A stretch of DNA of 64,000 bases from a virus. A program made the position numbers and the translations under genes. The first letter of the stretch is position 1, and each line of letters starts with the position of its first letter. The stretch spans positions 5,907 to 69,906 of IMG/VR virus record IMGVR_UViG_3300044643_001926. The stretch is one strand, 5' to 3'. Below, one piece after another: positions 13,889 to 52,885 of the stretch. The notes beneath the pieces were generated by a model, which made no database searches, had not been told where the DNA came from, and was given only the letters and a program-made list of their open reading frames with translations.

Positions 13889-16800
13889 ATGCTTGCCGCA
13901 GATGAAATTAAGAGGCTTCTGGCTGTAGCTAACGAGCCTCTCGAAGACGAAGAAGACAACCAGGCAGTAGCCGCCCCCGAGCCACGGCTCGATTTTGCCA
14001 CTCGGCCAGAGTCCTTTGCCAGTTTGGATAACCGTCCGGCCGAGCAAGAAGCCGAAGATGAAGAGGGTGCTATCGCGATCGAGGACGCACTGGCTTCGGT
14101 GGGAGCATTTCAAACACCTGAATATCGCACGCCAAGAACTCTTACTGAGGAGTTCTCAACAGGATTAGCCAGAGGAACCGACCAGACCCAAGGTCTCGGC
14201 TACGGGTTGGTCGGCCTCATGGGGCAGACGCTTGGCGTCGAGGGGATGGAGAACTACGGGCTGGAGAATTACGTCCGTAAGATGGAAGAGGCCGCGCAAA
14301 ACCAAGCTACAGTGCAGGATCCCTTCGAGGAGATTGGCGGGCTGGGGGATGCGGCGACTTATGCGGCTGGGTTACTTGGTGAGCAGATCCCGCAGTTACT
14401 TGTCTCGGCCGTCGGTGGTGGCGTCGGTGGTTTTGCCGCGAAGACGGTGGCGAAGAAAATTGTGGCCAATGAGATTGGCAAGCGGGTGGCTGCGGGGTTG
14501 GCCAAAGAGGTCGCGGAAAAAGAAGTGGCCGGGATGGTCGCGAAAAGAATGCTTCTCGGTGAGGGGGCTGAACTCATCAATAAAGCAGCTACCCGAGGAG
14601 CTATCGGCGGTGCTTATGCCGCCAACTTCGGTCAGATCGCGGGTGGGAGCTTCGGTCAGATCGCCCAAGAGACGGGTGAAGGTGATGCCTTGGCGGCGGC
14701 AGCTTTTGCAGTGCCAGGAGCGGCACTCGATACTTTGGGTGAGGTCTTTATCGCGGGGAAATTTCTCAAGCCTTTCACGAAGACGGGACGGGCGGCAGCA
14801 GAGGGTGTCGATGCGGCGACGGGGATCTCGTTCCCCGGCCGTGTGGCCCGCAGTGTAGGCGTCGGTCTTCCTGCTGCGGCAACCTTGGAAGGTGGCACCG
14901 AGTATGTGCAGACCGGATTGGAGCAAGCCGCTCTCGGTGCGGCGGACCCCAATCGCACGATCGAAGAAGTTGTCGGCACCCCCGAAGCCGAACGTGAACG
15001 TCAGATCGCCGCGGTTGCTGGAGCCACGGTCGGTGGCGGTCTCGGTGGCGCTGGCAGTGTCATCGAAGCACTGGCTCCGCAGACGGCGGAGAAGTTGCGC
15101 CGAACTACCCAGCCTAAACCAGTCAACCTCCCTGGAGATCCGGAGTCGGGGCAACCGCTCTCAGTCATCGAAGGGAACTGGTCAGAGCCGAAGACGCTTG
15201 GTGGTTTTGAGTTCCGTCGTAATGAGGCGGGACAGGTGGCGATCTTTAATCCGGACCCCGAGAGGTTCGGCAAGCTACCGCGGTTTTCGACGCCGCAGGG
15301 TGAAGTGTTTTCGCCGATTGATGGTGTCGAGTATCTCAATCTCCCGACAAAATCAGACAAGGTTTTAGCGCAACGTGCTCGTGGGCTGTTTGACGATGAT
15401 GAGGTCGGATCGACACCCGTAAAACGCACCCCGGTCCAGAAACCTAAACCGCGCACCCCGTCGCGTGAAGCGGTGCTCGATGATGGTCCGGATATGACGC
15501 CGGCTGGTCAGGCGGTGGGATCCAATGTGCGGTTCAATGGTTACGAAGGATCGTTGGCTCAAGACGGTGCGAGATTTTTGCTGCGGGGTAATGATGGCAC
15601 GGAGGTCGAAGTTCCTGCGGAGAGTGAAGTCGAGATCGTTGCGGCCCCTGCGCCGACTCGTCTAACAACTACGTCGATCCCGGCCGTGCAGACTCCGCCG
15701 GTCGAACAACCGGCACCGATGCCCGACCTCGCGACGATGGGTGCGGAGGAAATTTCCAAAGCGGCACTGGCCCGTCCTGAAGTCTCGGTCGTGGACCAAG
15801 CAGCGGAGACGGCTGAGACCTTGGACCGCAATGCGGTGACCTTGCTGCAAGATGCACGGACCACGCTGGAGAGTTCGATCGGGGAGATCGAGCGCCGGGA
15901 GTTGGCACCGGAAGCCAAGAGCACGCTGACCGAGCCGCTGTATCAAAAGCTCGTTCAGGTCGAAGACACTTTAAGCAAAGCGCCGGCCGAGGCGACGGCA
16001 CTCGATGCGGAGATTCAGAAGAGCAAGCAGACGATCGCCGATACCAAAGTCGAGCAGGTCAAAGTCGCACAGCAAACGGTCAACCGTCCTCCGGATCAGT
16101 CGCGCCAATTTGTCGAGAGCCTGCAACCCAAAGACAAAGTGACGGTCTACCTCTCGGACGAGAAAGCCGATGACTCGCTTTCGTTCGGTGCGACTTTCGA
16201 AGCCCGCCGTCCGAACGGCAACGTGGTCGTGGTGACCGAGCCGGATGCCGAGGGCAACCAAGAGAAGCTCGTCTTTACTCCGCAGCAATACAACCGGCTC
16301 GGGATGTTCAAGCAGCCTGCGCCAAAGCAGTCGCCGGTCGATGTCGCCGTTAATTCGGTGCTCGGACCGAAGCCGACCAAGGCGAAAGCCGAGCGCGTCT
16401 TTGGGACACCTTACCAAGAAGGCAAACCCCAAGAGGCATTTTTCGATGACGGGCTTTATGCCAATCCTGGTAAGACGAACAAGGTGCCGGGCGAGGTGCG
16501 CTACTTCGACAAGGAAGGTGAGCCCGGGGTCAAAGAGGTCGTAAACTTCGGCAAGTGGCAGGGCAACTCCCGGGGCACGCTCTTCACCACAGTGCGTCAG
16601 ATGAACCTCGGACTCGATGTCCCGGTGCCGGATGACCAACTTCAGAATCTTCCCGAAGGTGTGCAGGTAGAGCCGCGCACCATGAAGAACGGTCAGACCG
16701 CCAACGTCGTGACCAAGGTCGTCTACAACGGCAACACGTATCGCCGCGGGGATGCCGCCTATGACTTTTCGGTGAACGGGGAGAACACCGGCCCGGGAGG

Positions 16801-19800
16801 TTTCGACAATATCTATTTCAACTCACCCGAGCGTTTGCTCCGCAGTGAGCGGGCTCGCAAGGGCAAGCAGACGCAGAAAGAGAAGGCGGGCAAAACTGTC
16901 GGTTCGGTGCAGGCGAAACTGGAAAGCCTCGACGAGGCCGATCAGTTCTTTGTCGGCGATGCACGGGCACGGGCTGCACGGTTCATTGATCGTCGCAGCG
17001 ACCTCGATCCCGAGGCCAAGGCGATGGCTTCCGACGAAGCCGATGCCTCGATCATCGAACAGGTGGCCGGCCGCGATAAGAAGGGTGTGCCTCCGGTGCG
17101 CGATCTCGCGCTCTTCAAAAGGTTCAACAGCCGGATGCTCGATATCTTCGAGAGCAATCAGGAGAACGAGACGGGAGCCGATACCGGTCGCGATGTGCAG
17201 GAAGCAGCGCGTCAGATCACCGAGGAACTCGTGGCCTCGGGACAGACCGCAGCACAGGCATCGGCCGCGGTCGAGCCGATCGTGAAGCGTTGGCAGAGCT
17301 ACGGAGATTTCAGCCCGATCAAGACGGCGATGACCAAGGCGCAGAGCGCCAAGAAATCGGCGGTGCGGACCGGACGTAACCAGCGGGCGGCAGAGGCCGA
17401 TCTCGCCGCGGGGACGACCGGAGATGCGCGGCCCCAACAGACTCCGGCCGAGAGGTTTGCCGAGCGGACCAGTGATGAGGCGATGGCCGGCCGGGAGCGT
17501 CTTGGCCGTGTTGTCGGTGAGGATCGCGACCTCCTTGATGCCTATTGGGCTGAAGAAGAATTGAGCGAAACTGACCGGCAACGTGTCGAAGATCTGCTAG
17601 AGTATATCCAAGGCAACAAGACTTATGAGCAAATCAACCAAACAACCGAACAAGGTTCAGCAATACTTTCTAGAGAACCCAGAGATGGCGACAATCTTCG
17701 CCGGGATGCGGTTGCAGAAGGACGTGCCGGAGGACTTGCGGAAAGCCGTGGGCGAGGACGCAATCAAGCGGGCGCTGGACGGGGACGTAACCGTGTGGGC
17801 CGAACTGATGGTGGCCAAGCCGGAACTGTTCCGGGAGCGGCCCCTGTCGCTGGTGGAAGATCTGGCTTGGGAGGAACTCCTGACCAACGGAACGCCAGCA
17901 CCGCGAGGCGAGCCTTCGTCGGCTCCTTCATCGGCGACCGCAGTCTAGTCGCCGGCCTCTCTGAGGCAGTCGTCGAGAAGATCTACCAAGCAGTCTCGAC
18001 CACCCTCGACGCTCTCGCCGCGACCAAGGGACGCCGCGTTGTTGCCGCGACCGAGGCGAACATGGCCGACCTGATGGGTCGATCAGTTGAAGAACTCGTC
18101 GCCGGATACCAAGAGGAATTTTCCAGTTACATGGCCAACCGTGAGCGGATCGATGCAATCCGCCGCAACGCGCAAGAGGCCGTGCGTAGCCGGATCTTCG
18201 AAGGTCCGAAGGCCGCGCTTGAGTTCATGGCGCAAGATGGCGACCGACCGGCGTTCATGCGGATGATTGCCAAGGTCGTCTTGAGCCAGGGTCAGCGGTT
18301 CGGTCTCAACATTGATGACATCGCGATGCAGGTCGGCATCTTCCGCCGCAACTTCGCGACCCAGCCTTTGCGCGGTGAAGAAGTGCGGGCTCGGGTGCAG
18401 GAAGTTCAAGGCGAGGAAGGTGAGGGTGTCTTCGAGGTGACCACTCCGGACGGCGTGGAGACTTATGCTTTCGGCGGTGAGTCGGGGCGCACCCGCAAAC
18501 AAGCCGGCAAAGAAGCCCGGGCACGGGCGTTCGATCTTGTGACCGGACAGACGCGGACCTCTTGGGCCGGTGTGCTCGGAGTCGACGAGAACGCGACTTC
18601 GCCAGTCGGCCGCTACTCGGTCGTGCTCAACCTCGATAACTGGCATGAGGCCGATGACATCGGACTAACCATGCTGCACGAGATCGCCCATGTGTTCTCG
18701 AAAACAAAGTTCGCCGGTCTGGAGAAACTCAACACCGTCGAGAAGGCCGCGATCAAAGGAATCGAAGCCTTCCGTGTGCGGATGCTCAAGGCTGTCGCCC
18801 GGACCAATGGTCTCGAAGTGCCTGCGGGTAATAACCCCACAACACTGGCGCAGTTGAGCCGTCAGGTCGATGACCTCTCCAACCCGAACGTGGTCGGAGC
18901 CGACGCCGACCGGCGCTTTGCCTATCTGGTCAATGCCGAGGAGACCGCCCGCGGGCTCATGGAGAGCCCGGAATTTCTCAAGCTCGCCCTGCAACTCGGG
19001 CTCGGTAAAGCCAAGACCAAGGGCAAGAAGACCTCGCTGTCCGGTCCCGTGGCCGAGGCTTGGGGCGACATCGTCGATCTCAACTCGGGCAAGAAGACCG
19101 CGGAGACGAGCCCGCTCGCGACCGCTTTCCAAGATGCGTGGGCCGCGACCTTCGGTGCTCTCGAAGGCACGACCGAGGGCTATGCCAAACCTCCGATCGG
19201 AGCGAACCCCTTGGCCCAGGATCTCGCCGCCTTGGATCAAGCAACTAATTTTATTGAAGACCAGATCATCACCCGGGGACTGACTGGCACGACCGCGGAA
19301 CGTGAAGCCTTGCTGCAAGAGTTCATGGCTGCACGGAACATGGTTCAGGGTGCAGAGGCAGTGGTCGAGGAAGCGGACGCCGATGTCGATACGCTGGCTG
19401 ATCCGTTGACGATGAGCCGGGCTGTGACGCCCCAGATGGATCGCGAGTATCTAGCCGCCGTCGAGCGCGGGGACATGGAGACGGCGCAGCGGATGGTGGA
19501 TGAGGCAGCTAAAGCAGCGGGATATAACATTGGCCCTGTGTGGCATGGCACAGACGCATATTTTTCGACTTTTGATAAAGACAAACTTGGCTCTGTATCC
19601 GAATCTTCAGACGCAGCATTAGGGTTTTGGTTTAGTGAAAGTGAAGAGAGAGCTTGGATGGCTAGATCAGACGCGATGCGTGCTTCTGGAAATACTGTGG
19701 CACCACCGCCTCTACGAGTGTCTCTAAAATTAGATGCTCCATTTACTGTCGATGAGTCTATAAAAAATTATACTTCCGAGGACACCGCAAAAATTATAGA

Positions 19801-22800
19801 GGACGCCGCAGATAAAGGGCATGACGGTGTAATTTTTTTACAGGGGGAGGCGATTGGAAAAGATGTCATCGCGTTCGAGCCAAATAAAATCAAGCGAACC
19901 GATGCCATAACACGAGACAACCGCAGAAACGTCATCCCGCTGAGTCAGCGGTTCAACGAACAGAGCCCGGACATTCGTGAATCCCGAGCAATTTCTAACG
20001 AAAGCCGCGAGGCTTTGTCTAACCAAGGAGCAACCAATGACAGAAGAAACCAACCTGCCCTACAAGCGACCACCCCAGGGGTGGGATCCGCAAGTGGAGG
20101 CGTCCAAGTTCAAAGGCAAGCAGTTCGGCCCAACGCCGAGCCAAACCCCTTCGTCCAAGAAGGAGTCAGTGCCTACAACGCCCGTTACGGGCTCGGCGAA
20201 GTAGTCCGCGGGCACTACGCCCCAGTCGACGAACAACGTGCTCGCAGCATCGCTGCGGCCTATGACGCACTCCCGGTCCTCGATGAAGGTCGGGAGACTC
20301 AGGATGCCTACCGGCAACTGGGCTTCGAGATCCAGCAGCAGTGGGACTATGCCATCAATACGATGGGAGTCACCTTCGAGCCGTGGACAACCGAGGGGCA
20401 ACCCTACGCCAATTCCCGGGAGATGGTGCGCGATGTCCGGGACAACAAACACTTGTGGTTTTTCACGGGCGGTGAACCGCACCCGCTCCTCAACCAGCCC
20501 GATGCCGACGGGCTGACGATGAATGACAAGCTGCGGGCGATCCACGATCTCTTCGGTCACGCAGCCGAGGACTACCAGTTCGGAGCCCGCGGCGAGGAGA
20601 ACGCCTGGATCAAGCACAGCCAGATGTTCACCCCGCTGGCCCAGAGGGCGCTGACCACCGAGACCCGGGGGCAGAATTCCTGGGTCAACTACGGGGCTCA
20701 CAACTACGCGACTGATGGAACACGGATCAAGGTTCCTGCTTCCGAGCGTCCTTTTGCTACGCAGAAGGTGGCCCTTCTCCCCGAGGATGTCATGGATTGG
20801 CGGGGTGCCTTGGCTGCGGACACTGTGACGGAGTCCCGGGCGGTGGCTGTGAGTCCCGCCGATGTTGCCTCGGTGATCCGGAACGCGGGCGGCATCACCG
20901 TGGACATCTGGACTGGGGATCAGCCCGGAACCGGATATATCGTGGCTCCTTTCAAGGAGACCGAGACCCGGATTCTTTTGAACGATTTCGCCCCTTCAGA
21001 TGTCAGATCCTTTATCCAACGCTTCAAGGGTCTTCTTGAAGTGAATGGGATGCACTTGGGCGGTTGGATTTCCGGCCAGCAAGTGTATCTTGATACCTCG
21101 ATAGTCACTAATGATGAACTCACCGCAACCCTCATCGCCCAAGACGGCAACCAGCTTGCCATCTTCGACCGCGCCAATTTCATCGAAATCCCTACCCGGG
21201 ACCTCGTTGAGCGATATGGTCGAGGCATCGGCGAAAGCCGCAGCCGAGTTGAATACCAAGATCTCGCTCGGTCTCTTAGGGAAGCGAAAGACCGAGTCCT
21301 GGGAGGAGTTCGAGGATCGGGCCGTGCAAATGTTTCGGGACAAGGGACTCTTCAAGAAGGAGCAGGTCTAACCAATGAAAGCCTCACGGAAAGTCGCGCC
21401 ACCTCGGCCAGCCCCAACCTCATCTATCAAGATTCCGAAGGAGAGCTTCGAGGACGACCGCGAGAGACAACTAATCAAGGATACCTACGAAGCACGCTTC
21501 TACGCCTTGAAGAATCCGCCAACCAGGGCCGAGATCTTGGCGCAGGCGAGAGCTTCAGGTTTCGTGCCGACACTAGCGGGGAAACCGATCAAGGGTTAGA
21601 ACAGCGCCGTCGCGCTCAAGCTGCGGCTGCTTTCGAGGAACTTGCCGCCATCCTCGAGGAACAGGGGCTCATACTAGACCCTGAAAGTTTCGAGAACACA
21701 GTCATCGAAGGCCGGGATAAGATCGGCGACGGTTCCGAGCACCAAGTCCACTCGGACAAGCCGACCAACCGTGTCATCAAATACACCAACCCGGATGTGA
21801 CCGGGAGCGGGGTGGTCGGTCAATCGCTCAATGTTTTCGATTACCTCAGAAACCTCGCCGCTCAGAACGAGATCTTCGGCGATGACATTAGGTTAGAGGG
21901 GATCGTTAATCTCGGAGAACCCTTCCCCAGAGTCGTCATCTCGCAGTCGTTCGTCAAAGGCCGTGACTCGACGCCGAAAGAAATCGACGCCTATCTCAAA
22001 GGTAGGGGGTTCGAGAAACAGGAAGACGGTTCATGGATCAGGGTTCGTGATGGACAGATCCAGCGCGTCTGGGACGCGGTTCCCGGCAACCTGAAGACGG
22101 TCAAAGTCGGTAAGAAGTCGACAGTCGTTCCGTTCGACGTTCAGATTTCGGTCGAGTCGGTGGCTGCTGAGAGCCGGGTGGAAGAATCCCGCGCCCGCGG
22201 CCGAGTCTGGCGTCCGGTGACCCGTCGCACCCCAACGGGAGGCACGATCAGCCGCGGCGGTATGTTTGCCGTCGACGAGCTTCTCGATAAGCGGGCCGGA
22301 GATCTCTACCGCTCAAGCCGGATGGCGATCAAAGTCGATGTGTCGAAAATCCAAGACCTCTCCCGGGTGTTGGAGCGGCAGATTAAAAATTTCTACAAAG
22401 GTGAGACACCGCCCCTGGAGACGATCAACACGGCGCTCGGTAACTTGGACAACCCGCTCACCGAGCAGCAGATCGGCGAGATCGAAGATTTGCGGGCTCG
22501 CGGGTTGACCAATCAAGCCGCCAAGAAGCGCGACCAGTATATCCGCGACAACCGCCGCAACTTTAAGCAGAACAAACAGACGCAAGCCTTGGCCCAGTTG
22601 CCGGAAGAACTGGCTGAAACAATCCGCGAGATGTCCTCGCACATCGAGTCGCTTTCGCGTGAGTTGCCGCGGGAAGGTTTGGTTAATGGCGACTTGGCGA
22701 TCACAGTCGATGAGGCACTCGGGACCTATCTTAATCGTAGCTACGCAATTTTCGACGACCCGTTGTGGGGCGACCGTGTGCGAAAAGATGCCAAGGTCAT

Positions 22801-25105
22801 GGACGCGGCTCGCAAGTATATCCGCAACAGCCTGACCAAAGCGAAAGCCCAAGACTTGATCGCTGACGCAGCCGACGAAGGCCGCACACTTTCCCGTATC
22901 GACGCCGAAGCACTCGCCAACGATTCAGTGCTCGATGACGAAGTCGAGAACCTCCTCGAAGGCTATCTCGCAATCGGAGCAGAGGCCCCGACGATCGAAG
23001 TGCTCTCCGGCCGCATCCCCGGGCAGAAGAATCTCAGCATGTTCAACCAGCGCGGCAACATCGCGCCGGAGATCCAAGCCCTCTGGGGACGCTACGAAGA
23101 TCCGACCGTCAACTATGCCAAGACCGTGATGAAGCTCTCCAGCGTCATCGCCAACGACAATTTCCTTAAAGAACTGCGCGACCTCGGTATTCAAGAAGGT
23201 TGGCTTTGGAGCCGTGAGAACAACCCCGACGATACCCGTCACCCGCCCGGATACGTCCGTATTTCGACCGAGAAGAATCCTTCACTGAGACCTCTCGGTG
23301 GGATGTATGTGCATCCGGATCTGGCCGAGGGTCTCTTCAAGATGTTCCCCGTCGGATCGACCGAGGAGCACTACGCCTGGCTGCGTGCTTTGATGAAGCT
23401 GACCGGCATCTCGATGGCGACCAAGACGGTCGGATCGGTGGCGTCCCAGGTCCGGAACTTCTTCGGTAACTATATGCCACTAATCGCAGGCGGGAACTTG
23501 GGCTTAGATGATATTACCAGCGGCGACTTTAAGCGCCGGTTCGCCAACTCGAACGACACCGTGTTGGCCAGCACCTTTGGGAAATATCGCAACATGAGCC
23601 GCGCCGAGTGGCGGGTGAAAATCGACGACTACATCCGCCGCGGTATTGTCGGCGAGTCGATCACGACTGGGCTCCTCGAAGACCTCCTCACGGCCAGCCG
23701 CCGCGCCGGGAGCCCTGACTTCGGGGACTTCGTTTGGAATAAGGTCGGAGATCCCTTCAAGCGGGTGGCTGACTTCGCCGTCCGCACCTACTCGGCGGGT
23801 GACGATTGGTTCAAAGTGATGATCTACGAGGCCGAGCAGGACAAATACCGGAAAGCCTTTCCTGACTGGGACGACAACAAGATCAAAGAAAAGGCCGCAG
23901 TCATCGCCCGGGACATCCACTGGACCTACTCACTGGCCCCGGCCATTGTGCAGGACCTCAAGAAGTTCCCCTTCATCGCCCCGTTCGTGACCTTCACGAG
24001 CGAGGTCATCCGCACCACTTACAATCTGCTAAAGCTGGCCCGCCAGGAGATCACGGAAGGCCGAGCCACGGGCAACAAAGAACTCGAAGCGATCGGCTGG
24101 AAGCGGGTCCGCGGTATGACTATTGCCGCCTTCCTCCCGTTTACCGTTGGATCAGCCGCTATGGCGATGGCAGGTATTTCCGGAGAAGACGAAGAAGACC
24201 TTCGCCGCTTCTTGCCCGACTGGCAGAAGAACAGTCAGCTTGTCCTCTTCCGCAAAGCAAACGGCGAGGTCGACTTTCTCGATGTCAGCTTCTTGGACCC
24301 CTACGAGTATTTCAAAAAGCCTTTGACTGCGTTCATGCGTTCAATGCGCAGTCCCGGTAATGCCGACGAGATCCTCCTCAAAGGCACGATGGACATGGTG
24401 CGCCAAGCCATTGATCCTTTTACCAGCGAGCAGATCTTCGCCGGAGCAATCATGGACGTGATGCGCAACCGCGATGCGGCCGGACGCCAGGTCTACAACC
24501 CACAGGACACCGGAGCGAACATCGGTTTGAGCGTCGCCCGCAAGATCTTCTACGATCCCTTCATCCCCGGCACCGTGAACAGCGCCGAGCGTATCGGTAA
24601 AGCCGCCTTCGGTATCGAGAGCGAGACCGGACGTTCTTACAATCTCATCAACGAGCTTTCCAGTGTCGCACTCGGCCAGCGTGTCTCCTCGGTCGACGCT
24701 CAACAGGCACTCCAGTTCAAATCTTCACGCTTCATGCGCGAGATGCGCGATGCCTCGGCCCTCTTTAATCGCGAGTTCACCGCCCAAGGCACCCGCTCGG
24801 CCGGCGACGTGATCGACGGATACGCTCGGTCGAACGCCGCCCGCCGCAGCCTGATCGACTCAATCCGCAGGGACTACCTCGCCGCGATCCGTCTCGGGGT
24901 GTCCGTGCAGCGGGCCAAGGCGATCCTCCGTGACGGGGGTCTCGGCGGCGACACCATCAAGATGGTGACCACCGGAATCTACAAACCCTACGACGCGAGC
25001 AAGCAGAGCCTCGACTTGGTCCGGGCCCGCGGCAAGAACGACCGCATCTCCGCTTACAACCAAGCCCGCCGCTCGGCCGCGCCCCGCGAAATCCTCGCCG
25101 ACTAA
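13889..25105 (+). CDS. large polyvalent virion/ejection protein (two metallopeptidase-like domains, an ADP-ribosyltransferase-like domain and a kinase-like domain)
   Basis: 3738 aa; HEIAH (~18677); WHGT..GFWFS..HDGVI (~19540-19900); HDLFGH..GEENAW (~20543); GSEHQV..VIKY..ISQSFVKG..DAVPGN..FD (~21730-22140). Confidence 0.8.
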   Translation: MLAADEIKRLLAVANEPLEDEEDNQAVAAPEPRLDFATRPESFASLDNRPAEQEAEDEEGAIAIEDALASVGAFQTPEYRTPRTLTEEFSTGLARGTDQTQGLGYGLVGLMGQTLGVEGMENYGLENYVRKMEEAAQNQATVQDPFEEIGGLGDAATYAAGLLGEQIPQLLVSAVGGGVGGFAAKTVAKKIVANEIGKRVAAGLAKEVAEKEVAGMVAKRMLLGEGAELINKAATRGAIGGAYAANFGQIAGGSFGQIAQETGEGDALAAAAFAVPGAALDTLGEVFIAGKFLKPFTKTGRAAAEGVDAATGISFPGRVARSVGVGLPAAATLEGGTEYVQTGLEQAALGAADPNRTIEEVVGTPEAERERQIAAVAGATVGGGLGGAGSVIEALAPQTAEKLRRTTQPKPVNLPGDPESGQPLSVIEGNWSEPKTLGGFEFRRNEAGQVAIFNPDPERFGKLPRFSTPQGEVFSPIDGVEYLNLPTKSDKVLAQRARGLFDDDEVGSTPVKRTPVQKPKPRTPSREAVLDDGPDMTPAGQAVGSNVRFNGYEGSLAQDGARFLLRGNDGTEVEVPAESEVEIVAAPAPTRLTTTSIPAVQTPPVEQPAPMPDLATMGAEEISKAALARPEVSVVDQAAETAETLDRNAVTLLQDARTTLESSIGEIERRELAPEAKSTLTEPLYQKLVQVEDTLSKAPAEATALDAEIQKSKQTIADTKVEQVKVAQQTVNRPPDQSRQFVESLQPKDKVTVYLSDEKADDSLSFGATFEARRPNGNVVVVTEPDAEGNQEKLVFTPQQYNRLGMFKQPAPKQSPVDVAVNSVLGPKPTKAKAERVFGTPYQEGKPQEAFFDDGLYANPGKTNKVPGEVRYFDKEGEPGVKEVVNFGKWQGNSRGTLFTTVRQMNLGLDVPVPDDQLQNLPEGVQVEPRTMKNGQTANVVTKVVYNGNTYRRGDAAYDFSVNGENTGPGGFDNIYFNSPERLLRSERARKGKQTQKEKAGKTVGSVQAKLESLDEADQFFVGDARARAARFIDRRSDLDPEAKAMASDEADASIIEQVAGRDKKGVPPVRDLALFKRFNSRMLDIFESNQENETGADTGRDVQEAARQITEELVASGQTAAQASAAVEPIVKRWQSYGDFSPIKTAMTKAQSAKKSAVRTGRNQRAAEADLAAGTTGDARPQQTPAERFAERTSDEAMAGRERLGRVVGEDRDLLDAYWAEEELSETDRQRVEDLLEYIQGNKTYEQINQTTEQGSAILSREPRDGDNLRRDAVAEGRAGGLAESRGRGRNQAGAGRGRNRVGRTDGGQAGTVPGAAPVAGGRSGLGGTPDQRNASTARRAFVGSFIGDRSLVAGLSEAVVEKIYQAVSTTLDALAATKGRRVVAATEANMADLMGRSVEELVAGYQEEFSSYMANRERIDAIRRNAQEAVRSRIFEGPKAALEFMAQDGDRPAFMRMIAKVVLSQGQRFGLNIDDIAMQVGIFRRNFATQPLRGEEVRARVQEVQGEEGEGVFEVTTPDGVETYAFGGESGRTRKQAGKEARARAFDLVTGQTRTSWAGVLGVDENATSPVGRYSVVLNLDNWHEADDIGLTMLHEIAHVFSKTKFAGLEKLNTVEKAAIKGIEAFRVRMLKAVARTNGLEVPAGNNPTTLAQLSRQVDDLSNPNVVGADADRRFAYLVNAEETARGLMESPEFLKLALQLGLGKAKTKGKKTSLSGPVAEAWGDIVDLNSGKKTAETSPLATAFQDAWAATFGALEGTTEGYAKPPIGANPLAQDLAALDQATNFIEDQIITRGLTGTTAEREALLQEFMAARNMVQGAEAVVEEADADVDTLADPLTMSRAVTPQMDREYLAAVERGDMETAQRMVDEAAKAAGYNIGPVWHGTDAYFSTFDKDKLGSVSESSDAALGFWFSESEERAWMARSDAMRASGNTVAPPPLRVSLKLDAPFTVDESIKNYTSEDTAKIIEDAADKGHDGVIFLQGEAIGKDVIAFEPNKIKRTDAITRDNRRNVIPLSQRFNEQSPDIRESRAISNESREALSNQGATNDRRNQPALQATTPGVGSASGGVQVQRQAVRPNAEPNPFVQEGVSAYNARYGLGEVVRGHYAPVDEQRARSIAAAYDALPVLDEGRETQDAYRQLGFEIQQQWDYAINTMGVTFEPWTTEGQPYANSREMVRDVRDNKHLWFFTGGEPHPLLNQPDADGLTMNDKLRAIHDLFGHAAEDYQFGARGEENAWIKHSQMFTPLAQRALTTETRGQNSWVNYGAHNYATDGTRIKVPASERPFATQKVALLPEDVMDWRGALAADTVTESRAVAVSPADVASVIRNAGGITVDIWTGDQPGTGYIVAPFKETETRILLNDFAPSDVRSFIQRFKGLLEVNGMHLGGWISGQQVYLDTSIVTNDELTATLIAQDGNQLAIFDRANFIEIPTRDLVERYGRGIGESRSRVEYQDLARSLREAKDRVLGGVRGSGRANVSGQGTLQEGAGLTNESLTESRATSASPNLIYQDSEGELRGRPRETTNQGYLRSTLLRLEESANQGRDLGAGESFRFRADTSGETDQGLEQRRRAQAAAAFEELAAILEEQGLILDPESFENTVIEGRDKIGDGSEHQVHSDKPTNRVIKYTNPDVTGSGVVGQSLNVFDYLRNLAAQNEIFGDDIRLEGIVNLGEPFPRVVISQSFVKGRDSTPKEIDAYLKGRGFEKQEDGSWIRVRDGQIQRVWDAVPGNLKTVKVGKKSTVVPFDVQISVESVAAESRVEESRARGRVWRPVTRRTPTGGTISRGGMFAVDELLDKRAGDLYRSSRMAIKVDVSKIQDLSRVLERQIKNFYKGETPPLETINTALGNLDNPLTEQQIGEIEDLRARGLTNQAAKKRDQYIRDNRRNFKQNKQTQALAQLPEELAETIREMSSHIESLSRELPREGLVNGDLAITVDEALGTYLNRSYAIFDDPLWGDRVRKDAKVMDAARKYIRNSLTKAKAQDLIADAADEGRTLSRIDAEALANDSVLDDEVENLLEGYLAIGAEAPTIEVLSGRIPGQKNLSMFNQRGNIAPEIQALWGRYEDPTVNYAKTVMKLSSVIANDNFLKELRDLGIQEGWLWSRENNPDDTRHPPGYVRISTEKNPSLRPLGGMYVHPDLAEGLFKMFPVGSTEEHYAWLRALMKLTGISMATKTVGSVASQVRNFFGNYMPLIAGGNLGLDDITSGDFKRRFANSNDTVLASTFGKYRNMSRAEWRVKIDDYIRRGIVGESITTGLLEDLLTASRRAGSPDFGDFVWNKVGDPFKRVADFAVRTYSAGDDWFKVMIYEAEQDKYRKAFPDWDDNKIKEKAAVIARDIHWTYSLAPAIVQDLKKFPFIAPFVTFTSEVIRTTYNLLKLARQEITEGRATGNKELEAIGWKRVRGMTIAAFLPFTVGSAAMAMAGISGEDEEDLRRFLPDWQKNSQLVLFRKANGEVDFLDVSFLDPYEYFKKPLTAFMRSMRSPGNADEILLKGTMDMVRQAIDPFTSEQIFAGAIMDVMRNRDAAGRQVYNPQDTGANIGLSVARKIFYDPFIPGTVNSAERIGKAAFGIESETGRSYNLINELSSVALGQRVSSVDAQQALQFKSSRFMREMRDASALFNREFTAQGTRSAGDVIDGYARSNAARRSLIDSIRRDYLAAIRLGVSVQRAKAILRDGGLGGDTIKMVTTGIYKPYDASKQSLDLVRARGKNDRISAYNQARRSAAPREILAD
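17625..17948 (+). CDS. candidate nested ORF (+1 frame) inside the polyvalent gene
   Basis: Globular-looking 107-aa sequence where the main frame is low-complexity Gly/Arg-rich. Confidence 0.45.
   Translation: MSKSTKQPNKVQQYFLENPEMATIFAGMRLQKDVPEDLRKAVGEDAIKRALDGDVTVWAELMVAKPELFRERPLSLVEDLAWEELLTNGTPAPRGEPSSAPSSATAV
20037..20204 (+). CDS. candidate nested ORF (+1 frame)
   Basis: AAGGAG at 20025-20030, 6 nt before ATG 20037. Confidence 0.35.
   Translation: MTEETNLPYKRPPQGWDPQVEASKFKGKQFGPTPSQTPSSKKESVPTTPVTGSAK
21216..21371 (+). CDS. candidate nested ORF (+1 frame)
   Basis: MVEASAKAAAELNTK..ESWEEFEDRAVQMFRDKGLF, amphipathic helical; stop 3 nt before the next nested ATG. Confidence 0.35.
   Translation: MVEASAKAAAELNTKISLGLLGKRKTESWEEFEDRAVQMFRDKGLFKKEQV
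21375..21599 (+). CDS. candidate nested ORF (+1 frame)
   Basis: AAGGAG at 21357-21362; TAACCAATG stop-start junction; protein-like composition. Confidence 0.4.
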   Translation: MKASRKVAPPRPAPTSSIKIPKESFEDDRERQLIKDTYEARFYALKNPPTRAEILAQARASGFVPTLAGKPIKG

Positions 25106-52702: not shown

Positions 52703-52885
52703 CTACAACCCGAAGAATTTACGCAACGCAGTGCGAATGACCGCGCTCATTGAGCGCCCCGAACTCTCTGACTCCTTTTTGAGGCGGTCTTCGAGTTCGG
52801 GGTCGCTGGCGAATGAGCGGATCAACTTCGGGTTGCGAAGGTTATTGATCTTCTCCGTCAGGGAGGGTGTTTCTGAATTCGTCAC
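52703..52885 (-). CDS. ribbon-helix-helix transcriptional regulator
   Basis: 'IRSF...PEL..RL.......GRSMSAVIRTALRKFF'; start uncertain. Confidence 0.7.
   Translation of the reverse strand: MTNSETPSLTEKINNLRNPKLIRSFASDPELEDRLKKESESSGRSMSAVIRTALRKFFGL

What the first reader, a model, noticed from the sequence alone, without database searches (positions are those of the whole stretch)
17625..21599. Protein-like +1-frame genes nested in the giant polyvalent gene, next to its effector domains
Seen: four ORFs (17625-17948, 20037-20204, 21216-21371, 21375-21599) are all in the +1 frame of 13889..25105. They fall where the main frame turns into low-complexity G/R/Q/A linker, while the +1 frame reads like ordinary helical protein. 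Two have AAGGAG upstream (20025 and 21357), and the last two are arranged stop-start (TAACCAATG) like a mini-operon. They lie before the first HExxH domain, between the ART-like domain and the second peptidase, and just before the kinase-like domain. Inference: overprinted immunity or chaperone proteins that neutralise toxic domains during virion assembly and travel with each domain when it is swapped.
Basis: partly seen in the sequence, partly recalled or inferred. Interest (0 to 1): 0.75.

Follow-up and report, generated by a model that had tools for sequence, protein, structure and literature searches.

The report
Hidden genes inside giant phage gene
Four short genes appear to be written in a second reading frame at the joints of a giant multi-tool phage protein gene, so the same DNA seems to encode both the joints and separate small proteins whose job is still unknown.

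Summary
The four +1-frame ORFs exist exactly as described, inside a 3,738-aa polyvalent virion gene (13889-25105). Their length is not unusual: 13 ATG ORFs of 50 aa or more in that frame, against 13.1±2.3 in synonymous shuffles. Unlike the other nine, these four carry marks of real genes.

- Synonymous codon usage and GC by codon position fit the +1 frame, not the main frame (main third-position GC 0.44 vs 0.69, p=1.5e-16).
- Substitutions between relatives pile up at +1 third positions.
- The ORF2 core [FY]xRPPxGW is kept through synonymous +1 changes in 13 of 70 distinct viral loci. Other clades carry other +1 peptides with the same phase shift.
- ORF3 and ORF4 stand alone, with the stop-start junction intact, in a bacterial chromosome beside a CRISPR array where the giant frame is broken.
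- The main frame is also kept open, against odds of about 1e-6.

I read these as dual-coding junctions: small genes read through in another frame as linkers. Translation is not shown.

The parts
13889..25105 (+). Giant polyvalent virion protein gene (3738 aa), the main frame
   Evidence: Pfam gives ART-PolyVal and Kinase-PolyVal. phrog_22602 'virion structural protein' covers aa 2939-3545. The gene lies among tail and tail-fibre genes.
17625..17948 (+). Nested ORF1 (107 aa, +1 frame), over a G/R-rich main-frame linker before the HExxH module
   Evidence: Log-RSCU is main -0.044 and +1 +0.078. GC at main positions 1/2/3 is 0.74/0.65/0.44. The ATG and stop are kept in L001 and L002. Seven called proteins are 61-99% identical. 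W vs L001 gives +1 84 identical/97 positives of 109, against main 74/83. AF2 on 9 sequences gives pLDDT 74 with 7 helices.
20037..20204 (+). Nested ORF2 (55 aa, +1 frame), ending about 26 codons inside the phrog_3170-like domain
   Evidence: An ATG-to-stop ORF of 43-64 aa is present in 12 of 14 loci. The substitution phase shifts to the +1 third position in the 60-90 nt before the domain.
20061..20084 (+). Conserved +1-frame core of ORF2, Y-K-R-P-P-Q-G-W ([FY]xRPPxGW)
   Evidence: Synonymous +1 codons vary between lineages: CGA/CGC/CGT/AGA, CCN, GGN, TAC/TAT/TTC/TTT. Amino-acid identity is 64% in +1 against 34% in the main frame. The motif occurs once per locus, always in this frame.
21216..21371 (+). 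Nested ORF3 (51 aa, +1 frame)
   Evidence: Log-RSCU is main -0.072 and +1 +0.128. W vs L060 shows 18 differences split 4:1:13 over +1 positions 1/2/3. Amino-acid identity is 87% in +1 against 65% in the main frame. A free-standing homologue exists in L060.
21375..21599 (+). Nested ORF4 (74 aa, +1 frame), before the Kinase-PolyVal domain
   Evidence: Eighteen called proteins were found. It is open with the same ATG in L001 and L002. A free-standing 131-aa form exists in L060 where the giant frame is broken. The +1 and main frames are equally conserved, and both more than +2.
20025..20030 (+). AAGGAG Shine-Dalgarno-like site, 6 nt before the ORF2 ATG
   Evidence: It is kept in L001 and L004, and as AAGGA in L015. 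It is absent from most other ORF2-type loci.
21357..21377 (+). AAGGAG followed by the ORF3 stop and ORF4 start (TAACCAATG)
   Evidence: The junction is kept as TAACCGATG in L060.
19538..19903 (+). ART-PolyVal domain (main frame), a swappable module
   Evidence: The module is missing in L002 and replaced in L001. Its codon usage is poor in all frames.
20126..21067 (+). phrog_3170-like domain (main frame), conserved HDLFGHAAE..RGEENAW core
   Evidence: No Pfam or PDB sequence match.
21695..22051 (+). Kinase-PolyVal domain (main frame)
18677..18691 (+). The only HExxH motif of the protein (HEIAH)

Best explanation
The four ORFs are genuine same-strand overlapping genes. Each sits at a joint between two modules of the giant polyvalent virion protein. 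There the DNA is dual-coding: the main frame reads it as a low-complexity linker that keeps the polyprotein in one piece, and the +1 frame reads it as a small protein of 51-107 aa.

Shown:
- The +1 frame shaped the composition and codon choice of these stretches.
- Substitutions favour +1 third positions.
- The main frame is nevertheless kept free of stops.
- Homologues of ORF3 and ORF4 exist as free-standing genes.

Inferred:
- The small genes are the older coding layer, and the linkers were overprinted on them when neighbouring effector genes were fused into one reading frame.
- They are translated from their own ATGs on the giant gene's mRNA, with ORF4 coupled to ORF3 through TAACCAATG.
- Each acts with, or on behalf of, the module that follows it. 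This is the least certain step. A module-specific partner (antidote, chaperone or regulator) is one option, at about 0.2. An unrelated small host-directed protein that simply uses the only part of the gene that tolerates a second code is another.
For: Composition:
- On synonymous codon usage trained on 12 other genes, the four ORFs have +1 at or above the main frame. All nine other +1 ATG ORFs of 55 aa or more have main above +1, a complete separation of 4 against 9.
- A sliding scan of the whole gene puts the four strongest +1-favoured windows with a positive +1 score on exactly these ORFs.
- The same scan on L001 and L002 picks only the homologous places, plus one weak window, among about 20 +1 ORFs each.
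- GC at main positions 1/2/3 is 0.72/0.60/0.44 in the four ORFs, against 0.64/0.44/0.69 in the rest of the gene. That is the normal pattern rotated into +1 (binomial p=1.5e-16).

Substitutions:
- For ORF2, nucleotide alignments of independent groups switch from main-position-3 variation inside the domain (e.g. 4:2:35) to main-position-1 variation (= +1 position 3) in the 60 nt before it. Counts are 20:11:7, 26:4:10, 26:14:7, 12:2:3 and 50:20:32. Two groups are weaker, 6:2:3 and 18:15:12.
- The motif codons differ synonymously in +1, including AGA against CGN.
- ORF3, W vs L060, gives 4:1:13, with 87% amino-acid identity in +1 against 65% in the main frame.
- ORF1, W vs L001, gives 18:13:23 by +1 position, and 97 positives in +1 against 83 in the main frame and 73 in +2.
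- In a gene-wide scan of W, L001 and L002, only ORF1 and ORF4 lose the usual third-position excess, apart from one small window (4:2:4) at 22760-22849 and unalignable swapped modules.

Conservation:
- The ORF1 frame, ATG and stop are kept in L001 and L002, and 7 called proteins reach down to 61% identity.
- ORF4 has 18 called proteins.
- An ATG lies upstream of the ORF2 motif in 11 of 11 lineages (chance 0.018).

Free-standing copy: in L060, a bacterial chromosome, ORF3-like (64 aa) and ORF4-like (131 aa) are intact with the stop-start junction kept. The frame of the giant gene is broken by stops and no kinase domain follows.

Dual coding: given the four +1 proteins and genome codon usage, the main frame would be stop-free with P 0.015, 0.069, 0.039 and 0.028 (joint 1.1e-6).
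Against: - No evidence of translation was obtainable.
- ORF length and openness in +1 are what codon bias and the hydrophobic-poor linkers predict.
- ORF4 is no better conserved in +1 than in the main frame (50 identical residues each vs L001). Its phase counts are not decisive: 20:10:18 by main position vs L001, and 4:7:10 by +1 position vs L060.
- The phase counts for ORF1 (18:13:23) are not significant on their own, and only two DNA relatives exist for ORF1.
- A Shine-Dalgarno site is seen in only about 4 of 13 ORF2-type loci.
- The C-terminal part of the L001 ORF3' shows main-frame, not +1, selection against L003 (2:6:2).
- The motif block was chosen after seeing the motif.
- Pair counts within groups are not independent events.
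- High GC at main position 1 follows in part from a G/R/A-rich linker, so only the low GC at main position 3 is independent evidence.
- No Pfam, PHROGs, NCBIfam, PADLOC, PDB-fold or Atlas lead was found for any peptide.
- The AF2 models are moderate (pLDDT 74 and 71) and had no out-of-frame control.
Confidence: 0.7

Rival explanations
1. Chance ORFs. The linkers are poor in L/I/V/F/M codons, which are the only codons that can start a +1 stop, so the +1 frame stays open. Out-of-frame reading of a Gly/Arg/Ala-rich stretch also looks helical.
For: The +1 ORF count and lengths equal the shuffles (13 vs 13.1±2.3). P(+1 open | main protein) is 0.15-0.66 per ORF, and the L/I/V/F/M fraction is 0.15-0.19 against 0.24 gene-wide. 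No family hits were found.
Against: This does not explain the low GC (0.44) and poor codon usage at main-frame third positions. It does not explain substitutions concentrated at +1 third positions, or the synonymous +1 variation across the conserved motif. It also does not explain the intact free-standing ORF3 and ORF4 in L060.
Confidence: 0.07
2. Fossil genes. The stretches were once independent small genes lying between effector genes. After fusion into the polyprotein they keep a fading +1 signature but are no longer translated.
For: Codon usage marks +1 as the older layer. Free-standing ORF3 and ORF4 exist. Evidence for ongoing +1 selection on ORF1 and ORF4 is weak. SD sites are mostly absent in ORF2-type loci.
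Against: The ORF2 core is kept in +1 across lineages whose domains are only 51-69% identical, all inside continuous giant ORFs. The ORF3 counts of 4:1:13 indicate continuing constraint. ATGs and stops are retained.
Confidence: 0.13
3. Recoding. The +1 stretches are reached by programmed frameshifting from the main frame, giving truncated polyproteins with special C-terminal tails. Alternatively they are left by a -1 shift into the next domain. In either case there is no independent initiation.
For: Each +1 stretch overlaps the end of one module and the start of the next. Most ORF2-type loci lack an SD.
Against: An ATG is present in every lineage examined. ORF3 and ORF4 work as an ordinary two-gene unit in L060.
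Confidence: 0.05
4. One reading: each nested protein is an antidote or chaperone that binds and silences the adjacent effector domain until packaging, and moves with it.
For: The ORF2-type peptide always adjoins the same domain despite differing upstream modules. Swapped modules bring their own +1 ORF. A bacterium that carries a CRISPR spacer resembling this phage (30 of 35) holds ORF3 and ORF4 alone next to that array. This would fit capture of an antidote.
Against: The domain lacks the motif in 57 of 70 viral loci, in 5 of 5 GenBank loci, and in the stand-alone soil genes. ORF3 and ORF4 occur without the kinase. No similarity to known immunity families was found.
Confidence: 0.2

Closest known systems
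Rz1 embedded in Rz (lambda two-component spanin)
   Same: A small phage gene lies wholly inside a longer gene on the same strand in another frame, and both products are made. I saw the titles and abstract openings of PMC5295617 and PMC6139136 in a search listing. The +1 frame is recalled.
   Different: Rz1 is one gene in a lysis cassette. It encodes a lipoprotein with a signal sequence and a Cys, and its partner is the protein it overlaps. Here there are four genes in series inside a virion effector gene. None has a Cys, and all sit over linkers rather than over a folded partner.
comS inside srfAB (Bacillus subtilis)
   Same: [quoted passage not shown]
   Different: comS is a single bacterial gene lying within a catalytic module, not at inter-module joints (its position in the module is recalled). 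It has no known link to module swapping.
Overprinted genes of small viruses (e.g. phiX174 B in A, E in D)
   Same: The DNA is dual-coding on one strand. One frame is ordered and typical in codon usage, the other low in complexity. Codon usage is used to tell the older frame; I saw only the title and abstract opening of PMC3744397 in a listing. The phiX174 examples are recalled.
   Different: There, the new frame makes the small novel protein. Here the small proteins look like the older layer, and the new frame is the linker of a 3,738-aa polyprotein in a 70-kb tailed phage.
Polyvalent proteins and polymorphic-toxin cassettes (Iyer et al. 2017, PMC5512222)
   Same: The host gene is a polyvalent protein with ART-PolyVal and Kinase-PolyVal domains and swappable modules. 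The paper likens nearby small ORFs to toxin cassettes (passage seen).
   Different: A term search of that paper found 0 occurrences of 'overlapping' and 0 of 'frameshift'. Immunity genes of polymorphic toxins lie downstream of the toxin, not inside the toxin gene in another frame (recalled).

Membership tests
Same-strand nested overlapping gene | Alternative-frame ORF lying wholly inside a longer ORF on the same strand | tested here: met
   all four lie in frame +1 of 13889..25105.
Same-strand nested overlapping gene | Alternative frame kept open, with start and stop, in relatives | tested here: met
   ORF1: L001, L002 and 7 called proteins. ORF2: 13 loci. ORF4: L001, L002, L060 and 18 proteins. 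ORF3: L060 only, because its module is replaced in L001 and L002.
Same-strand nested overlapping gene | Purifying selection acting on the alternative frame | tested here: met
   Met for ORF2 and ORF3. ORF1 leans the same way. ORF4 is inconclusive, with both frames equally conserved.
Same-strand nested overlapping gene | Own translation start signals | tested here: inconclusive
   An ATG is present in all (chance 0.018 for ORF2). AAGGAG precedes ORF2 and ORF4 in the window, but an SD is missing in most ORF2-type loci.
Same-strand nested overlapping gene | Protein product or initiating ribosomes detected | not testable with these tools
No Ribo-seq or proteomics is available.
Polyvalent protein (Iyer et al. 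2017) | Several effector-type domains in one polypeptide, including PolyVal-specific families | tested here: met
   On the isolated domains, ART-PolyVal scores 38.9 bits (cut-off 31.2) and Kinase-PolyVal 34.4 bits (cut-off 27). There is also an HExxH module and a phrog_3170-like domain.
Polyvalent protein (Iyer et al. 2017) | Carried by a phage, in a virion or structural setting | tested here: met
   The source is a virus record of 69,906 b. phrog_22602 'virion structural protein' matches the C-terminus. Tail-fibre genes lie upstream.
Effector-immunity (toxin-antidote) pair | Small gene genetically linked to its effector domain through module swaps | tested here: inconclusive
   The ORF2 type always sits beside the same domain. 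But the domain lacks the motif in 57 of 70 loci, and ORF3 and ORF4 occur without the kinase.
Effector-immunity (toxin-antidote) pair | Small protein binds and neutralises the domain | not testable with these tools
No bench data exist.
Programmed ribosomal frameshift product | Slippery heptamer in phase at the frame change | tested here: not met
   None in any of the four ORFs.
Embedded o-spanin (Rz1 type) | Lipoprotein signal with lipobox Cys; host gene an i-spanin in a lysis cassette | tested here: not met
   None of the four peptides contains a Cys. The host gene is a virion polyvalent protein.

The most novel reading that the evidence does not exclude
Polyvalent phage proteins are built by reading through small intervening genes in a second frame, so each module joint doubles as a gene. 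The small proteins are module-specific antidotes or regulators that stay expressed. Bacteria can capture them: here a host candidate keeps ORF3 and ORF4 beside its type V-B CRISPR array, as a decoy defence against the injected effector. The many clades with different +1 peptides before the same domain would make this a general rule of polyvalent-protein architecture.
Probability: 0.15. Interest if true: 0.9.

Novelty: new variant of a known kind. Interest (0 to 1): 0.78.

Why it matters
- Gene callers forbid nested same-strand genes. None of the five GenBank relatives examined annotates anything inside the giant gene. If these ORFs are real, a class of small phage proteins is being missed systematically in the largest phage genes.
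- It would also show a way of building multi-domain proteins: fusing neighbouring genes across a small gene without losing that gene.
- It gives testable candidates for partners or regulators of injected effector domains such as the ADP-ribosyltransferase and the kinase.
- The free-standing copy beside a bacterial CRISPR array hints at traffic of these small genes between phage and host.

Tried and rejected
Searches for relatives with DNA:
- blastn of 17000-22000 against GenBank phages found only a 150-nt domain match.
- tblastn of the ORF1, ORF2 and ORF4 peptides against GenBank phages found nothing.
- IMG/VR scans with the ORF1 and ORF4 peptide alignments returned only the two close relatives plus one weak partial hit, L057, which I did not examine. 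ORF1 and ORF4 therefore have very little DNA for comparison.
- The 5.8-billion-protein search with the 55-aa ORF2 peptide found no candidate.

Searches for function:
- Pfam, PHROGs, PADLOC and NCBIfam scans of the peptides gave nothing below E=0.08.
- Foldseek of the ORF1 model against PDB had a best E of 1.6.
- The ESM Atlas gave only sub-threshold rows.
- A profile of the phrog_3170-like domain against PDB sequences gave nothing.

Ideas rejected:
- The +1 similarity 'AFELP' between the L001 ORF3' and L003 is not +1 selection. The differences fall at main third positions (2:6:2).
- Frameshift signals were not found.
- ORF4 homologues are not a conserved bacterial gene: 1 of 301 genomes searched in the order of G001 has one.
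- The alternative ORF3 start at 21111 is not supported. The +1 codon signal begins near 21194.

Supplements of papers were not consulted.

Full report
**What is there.** The window is part of a virus record of 69,906 bases. ORF 13889..25105 encodes a 3,738-aa protein. It carries:
- an ART-PolyVal domain at aa 1884-2005 and a Kinase-PolyVal domain at aa 2603-2721, both above Pfam's cut-offs when scanned as isolated stretches;
- a single HExxH at aa 1597;
- a conserved phrog_3170-like domain from aa 2080;
- a C-terminal part matching a 'virion structural protein' family.

Tail and tail-fibre genes lie upstream. It is a polyvalent protein in the sense of Iyer et al. 2017 (PMC5512222). I read only the passages returned by a term search of that paper.

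**Length alone is not evidence.** The +1 frame of the gene holds 13 ATG ORFs of 50 aa or more. A thousand synonymous shuffles give 13.1±2.3, and codon permutations give 13.4±2.4. A +1 stop needs a main-frame codon with T in second position. The four stretches are poor in L/I/V/F/M (0.15-0.19, against 0.24 gene-wide). Given the main-frame protein, each stays open in +1 with probability 0.15-0.66. On this criterion the finding looks like chance.

**Composition says otherwise.**
- *Codon usage.* I scored synonymous codon choice (log RSCU, which is independent of amino-acid content) with weights from 12 other genes of the window. The whole gene scores 0.11 in the main frame and -0.07 in +1. All nine other +1 ORFs of 55 aa or more score higher in the main frame.
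- *Blind scan.* Among 740 sliding windows, the four strongest +1-favoured regions with a positive +1 score are 17624-17923, 20009-20158, 21194-21388 and 21419-21568. These are exactly the four ORFs, bounded roughly by their ATGs and stops. The ART module is also flagged, but it scores badly in every frame, as a foreign cassette would.
- *Relatives.* The same scan on L001 and L002 picks only the homologous places and one weak window, out of about 20 +1 ORFs each.
- *GC by position.* GC at codon positions 1/2/3 is 0.647/0.455/0.669 for the gene. It is 0.72/0.595/0.439 for the four stretches pooled. That is the normal pattern rotated by one base. Main-frame third-position GC differs from the rest of the gene with p=1.5e-16.

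A linker under no constraint, or under main-frame constraint only, should keep GC-rich third positions. The A/T-rich third positions are what +1 second positions require.

**Relatives with DNA.** Two IMG/VR contigs (L001, L002) carry near-identical giant genes with swapped modules. The ART module is absent in L002 and replaced in L001, and 20849-21494 is replaced in both. ORF1, ORF2 and ORF4 keep the same ATG and stop in both. ORF3 lies in the replaced module, where L001 and L002 have a different 63-aa +1 ORF that also shows the +1 codon signature. In the conserved blocks sampled, differences fall mainly at third positions (e.g. 25:17:98). In a gene-wide scan, apart from the unalignable swapped modules and one small window at 22760-22849 (4:2:4), only the ORF1 and ORF4 stretches lose this excess.
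- *ORF1.* A nucleotide alignment of W and L001 gives 18:13:23 by +1 position. Amino-acid comparison gives 84 identical and 97 positive of 109 columns in +1, 74 and 83 in the main frame, and 72 and 73 in +2.
- *ORF4.* The +1 and main frames are equally conserved (50 identical residues each), and both more than +2 (40).

**ORF2 is the strongest case.** The domain that follows it occurs in many uncultured phages. In 13 loci the +1 frame just upstream reads [FY]-x-R-P-P-x-G-W. The codons differ at +1 third positions (CGA/CGC/CGT/AGA, CCA/CCT/CCC/CCG, GGG/GGA/GGT, TAC/TAT/TTC/TTT), and the main-frame residues change freely, for example T/P/S, P/E/S and V/M/L. In this 10-codon block, which I chose after seeing the motif, amino-acid identity is 64% in +1 and 34% in the main frame.

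Nucleotide alignments made without reference to the motif show the position of greatest variation switching from main position 3 inside the domain to main position 1 (= +1 position 3) in the 60 nt before it:

| Group | Differences at main positions 1:2:3, 60 nt before the domain |
|---|---|
| W/L003/L015 | 20:11:7 |
| L012/L018/L019 | 26:4:10 |
| L070/L067/L065 | 26:14:7 |
| L010/L016 (window -90 to -30) | 6:2:3 (too few changes to judge) |

An ATG lies upstream in 11 of 11 lineages (chance 0.018). The ATG-to-stop length is 43-64 aa in 12 of 14 loci. AAGGAG or AAGGA precedes the ATG only in W, L001, L004 and L015.

A wider scan returned 80 of 290 domain-bearing IMG/VR stretches, 70 of them distinct. 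Thirteen have the motif, all among the closest domain relatives. Other clades have other +1 peptides at the same place with the same phase shift:
- L086/L088 (EEAxYRRRPP): 12:2:3.
- L119/L121/L144 with GenBank MW202722 (ETEEDGIRAEALRRLQVR): 50:20:32.
- L082/L087/L090/L083: only weakly, 18:15:12.

None of the five GenBank relatives has the GW motif, and none annotates a nested gene. The soil loci where the domain is a stand-alone gene have no such upstream peptide.

**ORF3 and ORF4 outside the phage.** A scan of one genome per species found one hit, L060. It lies on a contig whose title names a Chthoniobacter flavus MAG. The contig is chromosomal: it carries shikimate dehydrogenase, two aminoacyl-tRNA synthetases, HtrA-type proteases and a SurA-like isomerase. 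The layout is:
- a type V-B CRISPR-Cas locus, with a C2c1 RuvC-like domain and a Cas4-Cas1 fusion;
- its array of 31 repeats;
- then, 130 nt beyond the last repeat, an ORF4-like gene (131 aa, with an in-frame insertion of about 59 codons) and an ORF3-like gene (64 aa), with the junction kept as TAACCGATG;
- then a class II ribonucleotide reductase gene.

In this locus the frame that corresponds to the giant gene is closed by stops on both sides and inside the insertion, and no kinase domain follows. Against W, the ORF3 stretch has 18 differences split 4:1:13 over +1 positions. Amino-acid identity is 87% in +1, 65% in the main frame and 69% in +2. The ORF4 stretch gives 4:7:10, with 87%, 83% and 77%. 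Only 1 of 301 genomes searched in that order has the gene. It therefore looks like a recent capture from a phage rather than a bacterial gene family. One spacer of the array matches window 52752-52786 at 30 of 35 bases (E 0.006 against about 0.3 Mb). This hints that this bacterium meets phages of this kind.

**Other sequence evidence.** Public gene calls include 7 proteins like ORF1 (61-99% identity, 107-120 aa) and 18 like ORF4. The ORF4 set has a constant core (IPKESFEDDRERQ..YEARFYALKNPPTRAEILAQARxSGFVPTLxGKPI) with varied ends. I could not read their DNA. AlphaFold2 gives a seven-helix fold for ORF1 (pLDDT 74, pTM 0.60, 9 sequences). For ORF4 it gives two helices and a short hairpin (pLDDT 71, pTM 0.36, 21 sequences). 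I ran no out-of-frame control, so this is weak support. Nothing in PDB resembles the ORF1 model.

**Both frames are maintained.** I back-translated the four +1 proteins with the genome's codon usage. The main frame then comes out stop-free in 1.5%, 6.9%, 3.9% and 2.8% of trials, a joint probability of 1.1e-6, with about 12 stops expected in all. The polyprotein's continuity across these stretches is therefore also selected, and the stretches are dual-coding. The main frame also has its own recurring feature at the joints. The tripeptide ESR occurs 8 times, against 1.3±1.1 in shuffles, always at module borders.

**How I read it.** Codon usage marks the small ORFs as the older layer and the linkers as the overprinted one. 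The use of codon usage for this purpose follows Pavesi et al., PMC3744397, of which I saw only the title and abstract opening in a listing. The simplest history is that effector genes once separated by small genes were fused into one frame by reading through the small genes one base out of phase. The small genes survived and are still translated from their own ATGs, with ORF4 probably coupled to ORF3. I put 0.7 on real, currently selected overlapping genes for at least three of the four.

Their function is open. It is weakened by the many domain copies without the motif and by ORF3 and ORF4 occurring without a kinase. I give it about 0.2. Frameshift-based readings find no slippery site.

**Novelty.** Six full-text searches and a term search of the founding paper on polyvalent proteins turned up no report of genes nested in polyvalent protein genes. 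Nested same-strand genes are known (Rz1 in Rz, comS in srfAB, the overprinted genes of small phages). I therefore class this as a new variant of a known kind: several small genes in series, each doubling as an inter-module linker of a giant virion protein.

**Limits.**
- No translation data exist.
- Very few DNA relatives are available for ORF1, ORF3 and ORF4.
- Pair counts within groups are not independent events.

Noticed in passing
window 17741, 19979, 20000, 20831, 21233, 21389, 22169, 22184 (main frame): The tripeptide ESR occurs 8 times in the giant protein, always at module borders. Shuffles give 1.3±1.1, and 0 of 2000 reach 8. Four of the sites use the same DNA word GAAAGYCGY, which occurs 12 times in the window against 4.0±1.8 expected. 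These may be processing sites or a junction word for module exchange.
   Followed up: partly
L060 1593-2186 = G001:C19 (L062 12777-13370, - strand): Free-standing homologues of ORF3 and ORF4 lie in a bacterial chromosome, 130 nt beyond the last repeat of a 31-repeat type V-B CRISPR array and next to a class II ribonucleotide reductase gene. Only 1 of 301 genomes searched in that order has them. Protein P0014 ends in the translated CRISPR repeat, so the same adjacency seems to exist in another assembly.
   Followed up: partly
window 52752-52786: One spacer of the G001 CRISPR array matches this stretch over its full length at 30 of 35 bases (E 0.006 in a small database). This is a possible host link to a Chthoniobacter-like bacterium.
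   Followed up: no
window 19427-19946 and 20849-21494: The giant gene is mosaic. The ART module is absent in L002 and replaced in L001, and a second block is replaced in both, while most of the gene is 97-100% identical at protein level. The ART module has poor codon usage in all three frames, as a recently acquired cassette would.
   Followed up: partly
L086, L088, L119, L121, L144, L054 (GenBank MW202722), just upstream of the domain: Other clades of the same domain carry different +1-frame peptides (EEAxYRRRPP; ETEEDGIRAEALRRLQVR) with the same shift of variation to +1 third positions (12:2:3; 50:20:32). The phenomenon is wider than the GW motif.
   Followed up: partly
L003 2801-3118: In this relative the +1 ORF is 106 aa long. 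It joins a part like the L001 ORF3' to the ORF2-type part with no stop between them.
   Followed up: no
window 13889-14233: A weak excess of +1 over main codon score is seen at the very start of the giant gene (differences up to 0.15, with +1 scores near zero).
   Followed up: no
window 14396-15154 and 16823-17581 (- strand): The longest nested ORFs (252 aa each) are antisense, in the frame with the fewest stops (45 in the gene). They were not examined for selection.
   Followed up: no
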